Shown here one piece after another: positions 54,001 to 60,000 of a stretch of DNA of 64,000 nucleotides (position 1 is its first letter; every line of letters starts with the position of its first letter). The DNA lies in the NCBI RefSeq assembly GCF_011045215.1, contig NZ_CP049201.1; one strand, 5' to 3'. The position numbers are program-made. The stretch comes from Escherichia coli. Lineage in GTDB: Bacteria; Pseudomonadota; Gammaproteobacteria; Enterobacterales; Enterobacteriaceae.

Positions 54001-57000
54001 TATCCGCCAGAGATTTGTACACGCTGTATCCGTCACTCACCAGCGTGCCACCACGCCAGCCCTGCAGCCAGGCCTCAGGATATCTGAGGGCCCGTCCGGT
54101 CTGCGAGTCAAAACAGACGACCGGCGGGCCGCTTCTTTCTCCGCTGACGTAAGCCCACAGCCAGCCGGAGCAGGATTTACCGCCTTTCCGGGTATCAAGG
54201 AGCCTCAGGGACGTTTCATCTGCATGAATAACATCCCGTGTCAGAAGCTCGTGGCGTAACAATTTTGCCAGCGGGGCCAGTGCAGCGCCAGCAACACCGA
54301 CCATATCCGCCATTGTACTGACGGGGAGCTCCACACCCATTCGGGAGAAAATGTGCTGCTGGCGATACAGGGGCAGATGGTCGGTATATTTGCTGATGAC
54401 AACCTGTGCGATGACCGATGGCTCAACAGCACTTTTCGGAAGGATATGTGCCGGCATTTTTCCGCTGAACACTTTCTCACAGCAGGGACAGCTGTACTGC
54501 GGGCGGATATAGCGGTGGACCACAACCTGTGCGGGGATATATTCCAGCTTCTCGCTGACTTCATCGCGAATGAAGTGCAGGGGGGCATCACAGTCAGGAC
54601 AACGTTCCTCAGCTGGCGGGATAACCTTTTCAGCACGGGGAAGATGTGAAGGCAAGGGCTTACGAACAGGACGTGTTGTTTTTTCTTCGTCCCCGGTCTG
54701 AGGAAGCAGTTTGTCCAGACGCGCCGAGATTTCTGCGATATCCGCGTCAACATCCTCTTCGAACAGGGAACGCTGCATCCCGGCCAGCGATTCGCATTTT
54801 TTACCAAAACGCTGCTGGCGTGCGAGCTTCATCTGCTCTTCCAGGATGCGGATACGGTTCTGAAGTTCTGCAATATTCCGGTCTTTTTCCAGCACCATAT
54901 TTGCAAGGTTCTGACTCTCAGCCATGGCTTTTGCACCATGGCAATTGCCAGAGCGCGAAGCTGTTCAGGGTCACTGGTGGTACTGAGAAGCGAGATATCC
55001 ATGCGGTGGATTATATGACATCACGCATGGATATTCATTATATTTCATTGAGTTATTGCGTTGCTCTGAGCATCTTCGGGTTCTTCCTGGTATACCCATT
55101 TTGCCAGGTCATGCCCTTTCACCTGTTGCCAGTCAACCCCACAGACCAGCCAGTGAAACTCATCCTGTGTGAGATGCCATGTGGCATCACCTTTCCGGGG
55201 CCAGCGGAAGCTTCCCCGGTGCAGTCGTCGGGTACACAGCCATACGCCATGTTTGTCCCACCGGAGAACTTTTATGCGGGAGCGGACTTTATTGGTGAAG
55301 ACAAAAGCAGCACCGTCATGCCATGCAGCGTTAAGTTCGTTCTGGACGTACTGTGTCAGTGTGTCGATACCCCGGCGCATATCGACGGGTTTTACGACCA
55401 GGAATACGTTATCAGGCGTCAGCATGGCGAAGAGCCCGGAAAACATCGGTTAACTGAGAAGGCTGGCAGCACATCCGGATACCTCCGGGAAGGAAAAGTG
55501 TGACAGGCTCATCCGACAATGGTCTGCCATCAGCCATACCGGGAGCGCCAGACACTGAAACTGGAATAATTTCAGGTGCTCTGGCTCGTTTTTCGGCTTT
55601 TGCAACATCCTGCGGCCACTGGCGCAGGGATTTAAACGGAATGTCGTAAAGTTCACAGTACTGTTCACGGGTAAGGCCGCTTGCGCGCCATGCGGCAACG
55701 TGATGTTTTTTCTGATCAAGCGTCCATCGTATCCTGGGCATTGTTTACTCTCCACAGAAGGAAGTTATACGAATACCGGAATGTTAATGAACAGAATATT
55801 TCTGTGAAGATAAGATCCCCGAAACGATACAATCATTAAATATGAACTGGAGGTACAAATGAATAAATACTTAATTATTTTATTTTTTATTGCTGACACT
55901 TCTAACGCTTCAGAAGCTATATCAAATAAGTACACAATAGATTCAGACAGTCAGTTAATATTATCGAATGGAAATATTAAGGCTGTTGGCAATGTACACG
56001 CTGTAAGCGGGGACATGACTATTGATGCAGATGAAGCTATTTATCATCGTGAAACCCCTGATAACACCTATATAACTGCCACAGGGGATCCAATAAAATA
56101 CAATGGGATAACAGAAGATGGCAAGCCGTTTTCAGGAAACTCGAAAAAGCTTAAATATACTCCCAAAACAGGAGAGGTGATCCTGACAGACGAAGCTTTT
56201 GTCCAACAGAGTGGAAATTCTCTGTCGGCCGAAGTAATAACATATAACACCATCACAAGAAAAATGACAGCCTCAGCAACTCCCGGTAAAAGAGTAAGGA
56301 GTGTGATTTATCCTGACAATATATCCCAGAATGAAAAATAATTACGCTTGGTTAATAATATGCTGAATCTGCCAAAACCTTTTATCCTGACAACTTACTG
56401 CCAAGATAAAAAGTCAGACGTCATACAGCAGAGTTATTAACAGGCAGCATACATCACCCCGACTGGAGAGTAAGCTCGCACAGTTCAAGTCATTGACGAA
56501 AAAATGTTTCACTACTGACGATACAGTGGCAGGTATTCGCAGTATTTTCCCGTTACAGAGCCGGCGTTGCCGCGCTCTGTCAGGCAGAACGGGACTGGCG
56601 CTTACTTGTTATCTGAACATTCATGTGTACTATCTTTATGTTACTGATGATGCAACAACATAAATTCGTTTTTCTTCTCACAGCATTGTTAAGCACCTTC
56701 TGCCTCAATTTGTTTCCTGTGGCAGAAACAGGAAATAGCATTACTGTATTGTTACAGATTGCTGCTGATGTCAATTTATTGTATCGCCGCTGGCAGATGA
56801 CAGGCCTGAGCATACTGCGGATAATTTTATTACTGCGCAGTGGTTATACAACTCAGCCCTCACAGTACTATTATATTACAGTGCTTATCTGTTATTCTCT
56901 ATTCTTCAGTCAGTTATTGTCTTCCGGCAGGTTGTTTTCTCCTCTGGCATTAATACTGAAACTGTATGCGCAGCCCTGTGCGGATTTTTACTCATCGGAT

Positions 57001-60000
57001 ATATGGGATTCTTTCTATTTGCAACACTGGAGAATCATACGTCGGGCTCTTTTCGTGGTCTTCCCAAAGAAGGGTTATTGATGATGAAGGGATTATTTTA
57101 TTACTCTGTTATCAGTATACTGACTGTAGGATATGGTGACATAGTTGCCGTCATCTGGCCAATCCGTAATGCAACCATTCTGGTTATATTACTTGACTGC
57201 GTCTATTCTCTGGTATTTATTGCACGTATTGTTGGTAGTTTTTCCGCACAAAAAAACGAACAAACGTAAAAATCTCCGCCCGTATTCTACCGGACATAAC
57301 TATTCGCATAATATCCATTCCTTCGGATTTTTCCTGCCCCCGAACACGCTAAAAAACCGGGCTTTCATACCCAGTAATCAGAGCTCCAGGAGAAAGCCCG
57401 GATACAATATATTATCACCAGCCCCCTGTGCCAGGTAATTGTTTTTCCACACGTATACTGGCTCGTTCTTTTTCCAGCTGACAAATCTGTCGATTTAACG
57501 CATTACGCCGGGATATATCTGTCACTCCTCCCAGCTGACTTCGCAATTCATCAATTTTCATCTGCAAAACCAGTTTTCTCTGTTGCACTGACTGCATACG
57601 CTCAACGGATAATATGACTGAGCGACTGACGCTATCTCCCTGCTTCCTGAGTACATCCGCATGAGTATCCATATTAGCTGAAAGCGTCTTCAGAGCCGCT
57701 TTCCCACTTTCTGATTTCAGTTTACCAATTTCCATACCAGGCTCCGCTGCAACACCAGCACCAGTCACCAGAATTACCACTATCGTAAACAAAGTCGGTA
57801 ATATTACGTTCCTCTTCACTATAGCTTAGCCTCCGGCACAATAAGTCTATCATCGCCTGAGCCATCACCCGTGACGTAAGCGCGAAAAAAGTCAGCAGTA
57901 TGACAATGACTCATGCAAAGATACACTAAAAAAAGCCGCTACCAACAGCCAATAACAGCACCAGACTTGTCGTCATCAGAAAATAAACATAATCACATAA
58001 CCTTTTATTAATATAACAATCAATACGATAATGGCAACAGGCGACCAGCATACTGTATTTCCGCCGGAATAATCAACAGTAAAAAAACGCACCTGTCCTT
58101 GACCCACGATATTCAGACAGTCGTTGTATCTTAAGTTGATGTTACCCGCTGACGTCGATATTCCCTTGGTGAGAGATAACCTAACGCACTATGCGGATGG
58201 TTTTCATTGTAATACTCGATTGCCACTGCAAGGTTATGCAATGCCGTTCTTGCGTATTCCGCTCTATTCGATCACGGATTTGCATCGAAGTCCGATCAGC
58301 GATTCGCATACTTTCGATCAACCGGGAACTTAACTTTTTCTACCGCTTTTTAACTCGTTTTTTCGATGCTTTCCACTACCGGGGGGTTTTTCCTCAGGGA
58401 CTCTCCCTGAAGGACCAGTCTGTGTGAGTTATGTACCAGTCTGTCCAGGATGGCATCTGCTGTTGTTGGGTTCTCCATCAGACCATGCCATTTATCTACC
58501 GGGAACTGGCTTACCACTATCGTGCTGCTTTGACCGTAACGATCTTCTATGAGCTCCAGAAGGTCATTACACTGGGCGTTACTTAACTGTTCCAGCCCCA
58601 GATCGTCCAGGATTAGAAGCTGTATTTTTTGCAACTGTTTCAGATATTTCAGCCAGCTGCCATCAACACGTCCCTGAGTCAGTTCTTCCAGTAATCGCCC
58701 GGTTCTACAGTACCGGACGCTGTGTTTCTGTCTACATGCCTGTTCGCCCAACGCATTGGCTATCCAGCTTTTGCCGCATCCTGTCGGACCGGTTATCAGC
58801 AGGTTTTTCCTGTGGATTATGTAGTGACCGTTCAGCAGCTCCCTCATCTGTTCAGCCCGCAGACCTCTTGAGGCCGGATAGCGCAGCCCTTCCGGTGTTG
58901 CCTGGTATTTCAGACCGGCATTTTTTCTCAACCGTGCCACACGATTGGTTTCTCTGCTCAGAAGCTCGTCATCAACCAGCTGCGTCAGCCTTTCCTCGAA
59001 CGACAGTTCGTCGTAAGTCTGAGGCGTTTCCCGCTGCCGTATCAGGCTCCCGGCCATCGCCGGGAGTTTCAGTTGGGTCAGTTTGTTTAACAGATTATCA
59101 CTCATTCGGTTGTTCCTTCTGTCAGTGGTAGTAGCCAGGACCACGCAGGTTTTCATGCTCTGAAGCATATGCCGGATGTTGTTCGCCCTGGCGGGATAAC
59201 GGAAGCTCAACGTTATCCCGATGATGACGCAGCAGATTGTCGATAAAGCGTCTGTCCGGGGCGTTATAGTGCAGGGCAACGTAACAGGCCTTTTCCAGCC
59301 GTTCCGGGCCGTATTTTTTCTGAAGTGCCAGCAGACCCAGGACTGCACGGTAAGCCAGCTCCGGATGGGGTTTGGCTTTCAGCATGGATTCAACCACCCG
59401 GCCTGTGGACGGACCTGTACGGTTTCCCTGCTCGATAAGGCGTTCCGGTGTCCATGTCCCATGCCGCCGGTGGCGTTCTGGCATGTGAAGCGGATTGGTT
59501 GTGTGTTTATATTCATGTGTGCTGCGCGGATGTTGCGCCACACACTGCCCCTTGTGCCAGAGTTGTACCACCGACTGCCCCGCCTTCAGTGACAGACGCT
59601 GACCGACCAGTTCGTGTGGAACGGAGTACCAGTGACGGGCATATTCAACGTGATAGTCAGGGCCAACCTTCACGGCTTTGTATTCCGTGTATTCATAAGG
59701 TGCCAGAGGCAGCGGAGAGAGTGCTGGCGCATCCAGTATGCGGAAGCGTTCTGCACGGGTTTGATTGCCGTACCCCTTCATTGGCCGGTTATTCATGTCT
59801 GTCAGTAACTCCCGAAGGCGCGCATTCAGCGCCCTGAGCGTGTGGAAGGTTTCATTACGGATGCGGGCAAGAAGCCATCGTTCGACGATGAGGACGCCGT
59901 TTTCTGCTTTTGGTTTATCTTTAGGTTTGCGTGGTCGGGCCGGGATAATAACCGTGCCATAGTGCTCAGCCAGCGCCTGATAACTGTCGTTGATGACAGG

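What the first reader, a model, noticed from the sequence alone, without database searches (positions are those of the whole stretch)
56623..57269. Potassium-channel-like gene with a canonical TVGYGD filter, apparently frameshifted
The frame 57003..57269 encodes a pore helix plus the selectivity-filter signature TVGYGD and an inner helix. The membrane-like N-terminal half is in the overlapping frame 56623..57081, and the filter frame has no conventional start upstream. This is either a recently inactivated small K+ channel or a sequencing frameshift. Small channels on mobile islands are unusual cargo.
Basis: seen in the sequence. Interest (0 to 1): 0.5.

Follow-up and report, generated by a model that had tools for sequence, protein, structure and literature searches.

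The report
Frameshifted small potassium-channel pseudogene
This is a dead copy of a small bacterial potassium-channel gene, broken by the loss of one T in a short T-run; intact relatives are common on enterobacterial plasmids and conjugative elements, so the finding is real but ordinary.

Summary
Frame 0 (open 56769..57269) encodes an outer helix, pore helix, TVGYGD (57123..57140) and an inner helix. Frame 1 (ATG 56638) encodes the N-terminal membrane helices. Intact 207-aa homologues (60-64% identity; E. coli, Salmonella, E. marmotae; Pfam Ion_trans_2) span both frames, so this is one gene.

The break is a 1-bp deletion in a T-run (T4 at 56825..56828; homologues imply T5). Adding one T gives a 210-aa ORF that aligns without gaps to the homologues. 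AlphaFold2 models it confidently (pLDDT 90.8) as a six-helix K+ channel subunit.

It is not a sequencing error. The same T4 allele occurs in 7 other independent E. coli assemblies, which differ by SNPs, a 6-bp deletion and, in two strains, an IS21+IS4 insertion in codons 14-17. The restored protein departs from the family at 14 of 80 conserved positions, including the inner-helix hinge glycine (G187D).

Intact relatives sit on 184 PLSDB plasmids, in ICE transfer modules and in genomic islands, and the wider family has >6,600 clusters.

Verdict: an ordinary pseudogene in a decaying, IS-ridden island. Low interest.

The parts
56638..56828 (+). 5' part of the channel pseudogene (frame 1): start ATG and codons 1-64, encoding helices S1, S2 and most of S3
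   Evidence: Aligns to residues 1-64 of intact 207-aa homologues. The start codon aligns with their annotated starts. tblastn of the restored protein places residues 1-56 at 56638-56805 in frame 1.
56825..56828 (+). Frameshift site: T4 run (GGATAATTTTATTACTG). Homologues read ..L-I-I-F-A/I-T.., which needs ATA ATT TTT ATT, so one T of a T5 run has been lost
   Evidence: Inserting one T gives a 210-aa ORF that aligns without gaps to homologues. The identical site is present in L001, L002 and L009-L013.
56826..57269 (+). 3' part of the pseudogene (frame 0): end of S3, S4, outer helix S5, pore helix, filter, inner helix S6, stop TAA 57267-57269
   Evidence: tblastn places residues 64-210 at 56826-57266 in frame 3. 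Helices come from the AF2 model: 74-101, 107-134, 146-162, 174-209.
57123..57140 (+). Selectivity-filter codons T-V-G-Y-G-D (restored residues 163-168)
   Evidence: Translation. T163, G165, Y166, G167 and D168 are invariant or near-invariant in A2 and A3.
57195..57197 (+). GAC = Asp187 where the family has a near-invariant glycine, 19 residues after the filter Asp. This is the position of the inner-helix gating hinge glycine of KcsA/MthK
   Evidence: G187D is listed among 14 departures at conserved columns. G187 is >=90% conserved in the 122-sequence alignment. The ungapped profile match to a KcsA chain runs through this position. The equivalence to KcsA G99 rests on my own knowledge of KcsA numbering.
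56829..57081 (+). Out-of-frame tail of the upstream reading frame, running to TGA 57079-57081. It is not channel sequence
   Evidence: Homologues align to frame 0, not frame 1, over this stretch.
57003..57269 (+). Its first conventional start in the filter frame lies in the middle of the outer helix S5
56679..56688 (.). Site (10-bp duplication) where E. coli C5 and 52F4 carry a 4.1-kb IS21+IS4 insertion in codons 14-17 of the same pseudogene. It is uninterrupted in the window
   Evidence: L001/L002 1567-1913 match window 56342-56688, and 6001-6742 match 56679-57420.

Best explanation
The region 56638..57269 (+) is a pseudogene of a small (about 207-210 aa), domain-less, six-helix K+ channel of the Ion_trans_2 superfamily. 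It was inactivated by loss of one T from a T5 run (now T4, 56825..56828). Translation from ATG 56638 now leaves the channel frame after codon 64 and stops at 57081, giving a 147-aa product with only S1-S3. The S4, S5, pore-helix, TVGYGD filter and S6 coding that follows has no start codon of its own before the middle of S5. No pore-forming subunit can be made, so the gene is non-functional cargo in an IS-ridden, decaying E. coli genomic island. Shown here: the one-gene relationship, the site of the shift, its presence in independent genomes, the fold, and the excess of changes at conserved positions. Inferred: that the intact family forms tetrameric K+-selective channels, and that no functional product is made here.
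For: Intact 207-aa homologues with 60-64% identity cover 96% of the merged frames. They align without gaps to the +1T restoration. The start codon aligns with the homologues' starts.

The same T4 allele is in E. coli C5 and 52F4 and in five further assemblies, L009-L013. These alleles differ by 5 SNPs (4 nonsynonymous, 1 synonymous), a 6-bp deletion in S5 and an IS21+IS4 insertion. No intact allele of this lineage was found among 5.8 billion clustered proteins. The best intact hit has 63-64% identity, while the frame-1 product itself is present at 98% (P0031).

The restored protein departs from the consensus at 14 of 80 columns that are >=90% conserved. Its close intact relatives depart at 0-2. 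The departures include P136S, A176I and G187D, which are near-invariant across a 122-sequence family alignment.

Pfam Ion_trans_2 matches. The AF2 model has pLDDT 90.8 and pTM 0.86, with four N-terminal helices, S5, pore helix and S6. Foldseek top hits are exclusively K+ channels: Slo2.2, hERG, SthK/LliK and KcsA, with probability 0.97-1.0. Intact members are under purifying selection, dN/dS 0.09-0.15.
Against: No expression data exist, so a low level of ribosomal or transcriptional slippage restoring the frame cannot be excluded by sequence alone. Pairwise dN/dS between the window allele and intact relatives (0.08-0.14, with dS saturated) is no higher than among intact genes. The frameshift therefore occupies only a small part of the lineage's history, and some of the 14 unusual residues could be older lineage-specific changes rather than post-inactivation decay. 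Foldseek E-values are weak (>=0.03), although probabilities are high. K+ selectivity and tetramer formation of the family have not been tested by anyone, as far as my literature searches show.
Confidence: 0.9

Rival explanations
1. Sequencing or assembly error: the gene is really intact (T5) and the frameshift is an artefact of homopolymer miscalling.
For: The shift lies in a homopolymer, the commonest place for indel errors.
Against: The run is only 4-5 bases long. The identical T4 is found in seven other assemblies from different projects: two complete genomes, four draft genomes and one Logan run assembly. They differ from the window and from each other at other positions in the same gene. 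No T5 allele of this lineage was found.
Confidence: 0.02
2. Programmed -1 ribosomal frameshift or transcriptional slippage: the two frames are joined during expression to give a full-length channel, possibly as regulation or phase variation.
For: Going from frame 1 to frame 0 needs a -1 shift, the common programmed direction. A canonical C_CCA_AAG heptamer exists at 57063 in frame 1.
Against: The site where the homology changes frame (A_TAA_TTT_TAT) is not an X_XXY_YYZ heptamer, and T4 is far too short for transcriptional slippage. All relatives encode the protein in one frame. The heptamer at 57063 lies after S4 and S5 have already been read out of frame, and about 0.4 such heptamers are expected by chance in 105 codons (my arithmetic). 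No length variation of the T-run occurs among the eight assemblies. Key residues have decayed, and two strains have a further IS hit.
Confidence: 0.02
3. The fragments are functional on their own: a 147-aa S1-S3 membrane protein and/or a short pore peptide. The pore peptide would be the 88 aa from ATG 57003, or the 62-aa product from ATG 57081 that RefSeq annotates as 'ion channel' in strain C5.
For: PGAP calls the 189-nt 3' fragment (62 codons plus stop) a CDS named 'ion channel' in C5. Gene callers report the 145-aa frame-1 product in several assemblies.
Against: The 88-aa product starts in the middle of the outer helix S5, and the 62-aa one lacks S5 altogether. A K+ pore needs both flanking helices (established knowledge of the KcsA fold). 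The model places S5 at residues 107-134. 52F4 has no CDS called there. The 5' fragment is itself split by IS elements in C5 and 52F4. Within-lineage changes are mostly nonsynonymous and include an indel.
Confidence: 0.05
4. Two unrelated overlapping genes, with TVGYGD a coincidence in a non-channel fold.
For: None found.
Against: Single-frame homologues cover both parts. The Pfam, PDB-profile and fold matches are all to K+ channels.
Confidence: 0.01

Closest known systems
Enterobacterial 207-aa 'ion channel / potassium channel family protein' (e.g. WP_000912556.1 on pMS6192A-NDM; P0001, P0002, P0004, P0005, P0008, P0011)
   Same: Same length class, same six-helix layout and the same ...FYYSxISILTVGYGDIVAV..WP.RNAT... 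pore. Identity is 60-64% with a gapless alignment after adding one T. They are also carried on mobile DNA flanked by IS elements.
   Different: Those genes are intact and under purifying selection (dN/dS 0.09-0.15). The window copy is frameshifted, is a deeply diverged lineage (dS saturated) and has lost conserved residues including the hinge glycine.
Short 6TM K+ channels without a cytoplasmic nucleotide-binding domain, such as SynK of Synechocystis (PMC2853561)
   Same: It works like this class: about 26 kDa or less, six helices, a canonical K+ filter, a gating glycine in S6 and no RCK/CNBD domain (paper; model).
   Different: Sequence relationship to SynK was not tested here. The window family is smaller (207 aa) and is largely borne on mobile elements in Enterobacteriaceae.
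E. coli Kch (NCBIfam NF007828, 6TM + RCK)
   Same: There is a weak local match over the S3-S6 membrane part (P0001: E 1.3e-6, residues 39-188 against profile positions 82-217).
   Different: The score is 10.9-27.7 bits against a 425-bit cut-off. There is no RCK/TrkA domain and the protein is half the length. It is not a member.
KcsA / MthK pore domain and non-domain-swapped 6TM channels (Slo2.2, hERG, SthK/LliK)
   Same: The pore helix, filter and inner helix superpose (KcsA TMt 0.59-0.70 over ~97 residues). The whole subunit is nearest to the Slo2.2, hERG and SthK transmembrane parts, and the S4-S5 connection is very short.
   Different: S4 (residues 74-101) has a single Arg and no charge repeat. 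There are no cytoplasmic gating domains, and sequence identity is only 13-25%.

Membership tests
K+ channel pore superfamily (Pfam PF07885 Ion_trans_2) | Selectivity-filter signature T-V-G-Y-G-D after a pore helix | tested here: met
   TVGYGD is at 57123..57140. It is preceded by a modelled helix at residues 146-162.
K+ channel pore superfamily (Pfam PF07885 Ion_trans_2) | Significant match to the family profile | tested here: met
   PF07885 matches at E 1.1e-5 (merged sequence) and 4.2e-6 (restored sequence). 122 of 122 relatives match, best 9.8e-17.
K+ channel pore superfamily (Pfam PF07885 Ion_trans_2) | Outer helix, pore helix and inner helix fold | tested here: met
   The AF2 model has pLDDT 90.8. 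All top Foldseek PDB hits are K+ channels with probability 0.97-1.0, though E-values are only 0.03-0.3.
K+ channel pore superfamily (Pfam PF07885 Ion_trans_2) | Uninterrupted reading frame encoding both pore-flanking helices | tested here: not met
   A 1-bp deletion at 56825-56828 leaves the pore frame with no start codon before mid-S5.
K+ channel pore superfamily (Pfam PF07885 Ion_trans_2) | Inner-helix hinge glycine about 19 residues after the filter Asp | tested here: not met
   The window has Asp187 (GAC 57195-57197), where the family is >=90% Gly.
K+ channel pore superfamily (Pfam PF07885 Ion_trans_2) | Tetramer that conducts K+ selectively | not testable with these tools
   This needs expression, flux assays or electrophysiology. 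No paper on this subfamily was found.
Voltage-gated 6TM K+ channels (Kv; Pfam PF00520 Ion_trans) | Four-helix S1-S4 domain N-terminal to the pore | tested here: met
   The model has helices at 9-25, 31-48, 53-69 and 74-101 before S5.
Voltage-gated 6TM K+ channels (Kv; Pfam PF00520 Ion_trans) | S4 with regularly spaced Arg/Lys gating charges | tested here: not met
   Helix 74-101 (ALTVLLYYSAYLLFSILQSVIVFRQVVF) has a single Arg. Homologues are the same.
Voltage-gated 6TM K+ channels (Kv; Pfam PF00520 Ion_trans) | Match to the PF00520 profile | tested here: inconclusive
   The restored protein does not match. 17 of 122 relatives match at E<=0.001.
Kch (NCBIfam NF007828) | Score above the curated cut-off and a C-terminal RCK domain | tested here: not met
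   Scores are 10.9-27.7 bits against a 425-bit cut-off. The protein ends 10-15 residues after S6.
Programmed -1 frameshift genes | Slippery X_XXY_YYZ heptamer at the frame junction, with the frameshift conserved in homologues | tested here: not met
   There is no heptamer at 56820-56830. The only one (57063) is downstream of the lost S4/S5. Homologues are single-frame.
Known anti-phage defence proteins (PADLOC-DB) | Match to any defence-system model | tested here: not met
   There are no matches for the restored protein, three intact homologues or the two neighbouring ORFs.

The most novel reading that the evidence does not exclude
The 207-aa, domain-less 6TM K+ channel family to which this dead copy belongs may be a dedicated mobile-element gene rather than random cargo. 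Intact members recur on about 180 conjugative IncF plasmids. They also recur inside ICE type-IV-secretion modules (between TraU/DUF1525 and TraC, next to a DsbA), and between traX/nuclease and finO on Salmonella IncFII plasmids. They could act on membrane potential during conjugation, entry exclusion or phage defence. The window copy would then record loss of that function once the island became immobile.
Probability: 0.12. Interest if true: 0.5.

Novelty: new member of a known kind. Interest (0 to 1): 0.15.

Why it matters
It matters little in itself. It is one more decayed gene in an IS-ridden E. coli island that also carries a CdiA-like hemagglutinin-repeat protein, a polymorphic toxin, an Ail/Lom protein and IS66, IS21, IS3 and IS4 elements.

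The practical value is for annotation. The 189-nt 'ion channel' CDS called in strain C5, and the 145-aa and 62-aa ORFs called in draft genomes, should be merged into one pseudogene.

The by-product is mildly useful. It points to an uncharacterised, very small six-helix K+ channel family without any gating domain. That family is widespread (>6,600 50%-identity clusters) and recurrent on conjugative plasmids and ICEs. It could be a convenient minimal model channel and might have a mobile-element-related role.

Tried and rejected
- Sequencing error: rejected, because the T4 allele is shared by eight assemblies.
- Programmed frameshift: I scanned frame 1 for X_XXY_YYZ heptamers. The only one, C_CCA_AAG at 57063, is downstream of the region that must be in frame, and the count is at chance level.
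- A conserved operon with the upstream lptA-like gene: rejected. The ORF upstream of the intact E. coli island homologue is unrelated. An IS66 scrap lies between the two genes in the window. Homologue neighbourhoods share no gene.
- A second, intact copy in the window: the 207-aa ORF at 35248..35871 is unrelated, and tblastn finds no other copy.
- Defence-system membership: no PADLOC match.
- Dating the inactivation by dN/dS: uninformative, because dS to every intact relative is saturated.
- Literature on this subfamily: four searches found nothing specific, and only SynK as a functional analogue.
- Rfam and tRNA scans found nothing in or near the locus.
- Promoter and terminator consensus scans gave only weak, near-chance matches, and I did not use them.
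Full report
**What is in the sequence.** One frame is open from 56769 to the TAA at 57267-57269. It reads ...VCAALCGFLLIGYMGFFLFATLE...GLFYYSVISILTVGYGDIVAVIWPIRNATILVILLDCVYSLVFIARIV..., with TVGYGD at 57123..57140. Its first ATG/GTG/TTG is at 57003. The overlapping frame, shifted by one base, carries a 152-aa ORF (56623..57081) that begins with hydrophobic segments.

**One gene or two.** I joined the two frames by eye and searched 5.8 billion clustered proteins. This returned 35 hits. The best eleven are 200-208-aa proteins from E. coli, Salmonella enterica, E. marmotae and an isolate labelled Vagococcus sp. WN89Y. They have 58-63% identity, cover 96% of the query, and all carry Pfam PF07885. 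They begin MLxxMKQHKF... This places the real start at ATG 56638, and a DNA alignment of the start regions confirms it.

The homologues follow frame 1 up to ..LSILRII and frame 0 from F-I-T-A-Q-W-L.. onward. The switch lies in GGATAATTTTATTACTG (T4 at 56825..56828). Reading ATA ATT TTT ATT ACT, with one more T, reproduces the homologues' ..L-I-I-F-A-T... Inserting one T gives a 633-nt, 210-codon ORF. That ORF aligns to the 207-aa proteins without any gap across the junction. tblastn of the restored protein against the window splits exactly there: residues 1-56 in one frame and 64-210 in the other. It finds no second copy. The two frames are therefore halves of one gene disrupted by a 1-bp deletion.

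**Real mutation or artefact.** The same stretch occurs at 99.3-99.4% identity in the complete genomes of E. coli C5 and 52F4. It also occurs in five further assemblies, found through the frame-1 product P0031. All seven have the identical T4 site, and none has T5.

The alleles are not copies of one another. C5 and 52F4 differ from the window by five substitutions: four nonsynonymous in the proper channel frame and one synonymous. L009-L013 carry a 6-bp deletion in the outer helix (57022-57027). C5 and 52F4 additionally have a 4.1-kb IS21+IS4 insertion with a 10-bp duplication at 56679-56688, in codons 14-17.

The frameshift is thus an inherited mutation that predates these later changes. No intact allele of this particular lineage turned up.

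**Signs of decay.** In the 25-sequence subfamily alignment, the restored protein departs from the consensus at 14 of 80 columns that are at least 90% conserved among the others. Its close intact relatives depart at 0-2, and the most distant intact members at 3-7.

Three of these changes (P136S, A176I, G187D) hit positions that remain near-invariant in a 122-sequence alignment of the wider family. G187 lies 19 residues after the filter Asp. The ungapped profile match to a KcsA chain and my knowledge of KcsA/MthK numbering put it at the inner-helix gating hinge glycine.

Pairwise dN/dS between the window allele and intact genes is 0.08-0.14 with dS saturated, similar to the 0.09-0.15 among intact genes. 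So the lineage was constrained for most of its long separate history. The inactivation is a late event that I cannot date more precisely.

**What the intact protein is.** Pfam gives only Ion_trans_2. NCBIfam gives sub-threshold local matches to Kch and to a methanogen K+ channel. A profile of the subfamily hits only K+ channel pores in the PDB, at E 5e-5 to 1e-2.

With the 122-sequence alignment, AlphaFold2 gives a confident model (pLDDT 90.8, pTM 0.86). It has helices at 9-25, 31-48, 53-69, 74-101, 107-134, a pore helix at 146-162 and a long inner helix at 174-209. This is a six-helix K+ channel subunit with a very short S4-S5 connection and no cytoplasmic domain.

Foldseek against the PDB returns only K+ channels. 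Slo2.2, hERG, LliK/SthK, AKT1/GORK and Kv match the whole subunit, and KcsA matches the pore. Probabilities are 0.97-1.0 but E-values are modest. S4 has a single arginine, so this is not a classical voltage sensor.

The nearest functionally studied type I could find is the short 6TM channel without a nucleotide-binding domain, exemplified by SynK (PMC2853561). I did not test sequence relatedness to SynK.

An exhaustive profile search found 6,655 50%-identity clusters at E<=1e-10. Most are 205-250 aa with full-length matches, and some are 430-450-aa tandem forms. The family is large, though uncharacterised as far as my searches show.

**Where intact relatives live.** In E. coli complete genomes, a homologue of the intact gene is present in 189 of 5,426 genomes: 181 places on plasmids and 10 on chromosomes. 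It is annotated 'ion channel' or 'potassium channel family protein'. tblastn finds it on 184 PLSDB plasmids (Escherichia 171, Klebsiella 11, Shigella 2), of which 163 are predicted conjugative. The contexts are as follows:
- On pMS6192A-NDM and pP136-4 it is a solitary gene between IS fragments.
- In Salmonella and another enterobacterium it sits inside an ICE transfer module, between DUF1525/TraU and TraC, next to a DsbA-like gene.
- In one E. coli it lies in an island beside a T6SS cluster and autotransporters.
- A 45%-identity clade lies between traX/nuclease and finO on Salmonella IncFII plasmids. It is chromosomal in Edwardsiella and Yersinia ruckeri.

No neighbouring gene is conserved, and no defence-system model matches. 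For this family, the statement that small channels are unusual cargo is therefore not correct.

**Context in the window.** By comparison with the annotated 52F4 and C5 genomes, the pseudogene lies in an E. coli chromosomal island. The island contains:
- a 3,106-aa hemagglutinin-repeat (CdiA-like) protein;
- a polymorphic-toxin gene;
- an Ail/Lom outer-membrane protein;
- IS66;
- an lptA paralogue (55859..56341);
- the pseudogene;
- a small hypothetical gene on the other strand (57415..57819);
- IS21 and IS4 elements.

Much of the neighbourhood is insertion sequences or fragments of them, which fits gene decay.

**Rivals.** Sequencing error is rejected by the shared allele. Programmed -1 frameshifting is very unlikely, for four reasons:
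- The junction is not a slippery heptamer.
- The only canonical heptamer in the overlap (C_CCA_AAG, 57063) lies after S4 and S5 would already have been mistranslated, and its occurrence is at chance level.
- Homologues are single-frame.
- The T-run length does not vary among assemblies.

Independent function of the fragments is unlikely because every downstream start lacks the outer helix. The fragments are also further disrupted in other strains. 'Two unrelated genes' is refuted.

**Verdict.** This is a frameshift-inactivated copy of a small six-helix K+ channel gene, in a decaying island. It is a new (dead) member of a known kind, and its interest is low. The only thread worth pulling is the intact family itself: a minimal, domain-less K+ channel that recurs on conjugative plasmids and ICEs and appears never to have been studied.

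Noticed in passing
window 55859..56341 (+): An extra lptA-like gene (160 aa). It passes the TIGR03002 LptA model (97.7 bits against a 71.7 cut-off) but is far below the PRK10894 equivalog cut-off. It lies just upstream of the channel pseudogene in all eight assemblies of this lineage. A periplasmic LPS-bridge paralogue on a pathogenicity-type island is odd.
   Followed up: partly
window 56421..56555: A 135-bp scrap with about 80% identity to IS66 tnpC lies in the spacer between the lptA-like gene and the channel start. The two genes are therefore not an undisturbed operon.
   Followed up: no
window 56679..56688; L001/L002 1914..6000: In E. coli C5 and 52F4, a 4.1-kb IS21 (istA/istB) plus IS4 block is inserted in codons 14-17 of the same pseudogene, with a 10-bp duplication. 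The window has the uninterrupted state.
   Followed up: yes
window 57022..57027 and SNPs at 56782, 57106, 57119, 57166, 57201: The 6-bp deletion and the C5-type SNPs are distributed incongruently among alleles. L009-L012 have the deletion only, C5/52F4 have the SNPs only, and L013 has both. This suggests recombination between pseudogene alleles or recurrent deletion.
   Followed up: partly
window 57063..57069: A canonical -1 slippery heptamer, C_CCA_AAG, is in register with the upstream frame, 12 nt before its stop. I judge it a chance occurrence.
   Followed up: yes
window 23407..23494 and 23598..23733: Rfam finds two CRISPR-DR4 direct repeats 60 nt apart (a one-spacer mini-array) and an RtT RNA element on the minus strand. 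They lie just upstream of a 400-aa ORF at 23951..25153. No tRNA gene is in the window.
   Followed up: no
L003/L004/L007/L008 ~7440..9500: Intact channel homologues sit inside ICE type-IV-secretion modules, between DUF1525/TraU and TraC_F_IV, and are always followed by a DsbA/thioredoxin-like gene.
   Followed up: partly
L017/L018 5752..8343; L021 2628..7657: A 45%-identity clade lies between traX/SNase-nuclease and ProQ/FinO at the end of the tra region of Salmonella IncFII plasmids. In Yersinia ruckeri the gene follows a glutamate-decarboxylase-like, amino-acid-permease and glutaminase (acid-resistance-like) cluster.
   Followed up: no
protein representatives P0036, P0039-P0043 etc.: Several relatives of 430-460 aa match the 209-position profile in two stretches. 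These are tandem-duplicated, two-pore-like versions of this small six-helix channel.
   Followed up: no
L001 6403..6591 (E. coli C5, WP_244589335.1): RefSeq annotates only the last 62 codons of the pseudogene as an intact CDS named 'ion channel'. In 52F4 nothing is annotated there. Neither record flags a pseudogene.
   Followed up: yes
window 39319..48639 (+) and downstream to ~52000: A 3,106-aa ORF corresponds to a hemagglutinin-repeat (CdiA-like) protein. In the annotated relatives it is followed by DUF596, polymorphic-toxin type 25 and Ail/Lom genes, so the channel pseudogene sits in a contact-dependent-inhibition/adhesin island.
   Followed up: no
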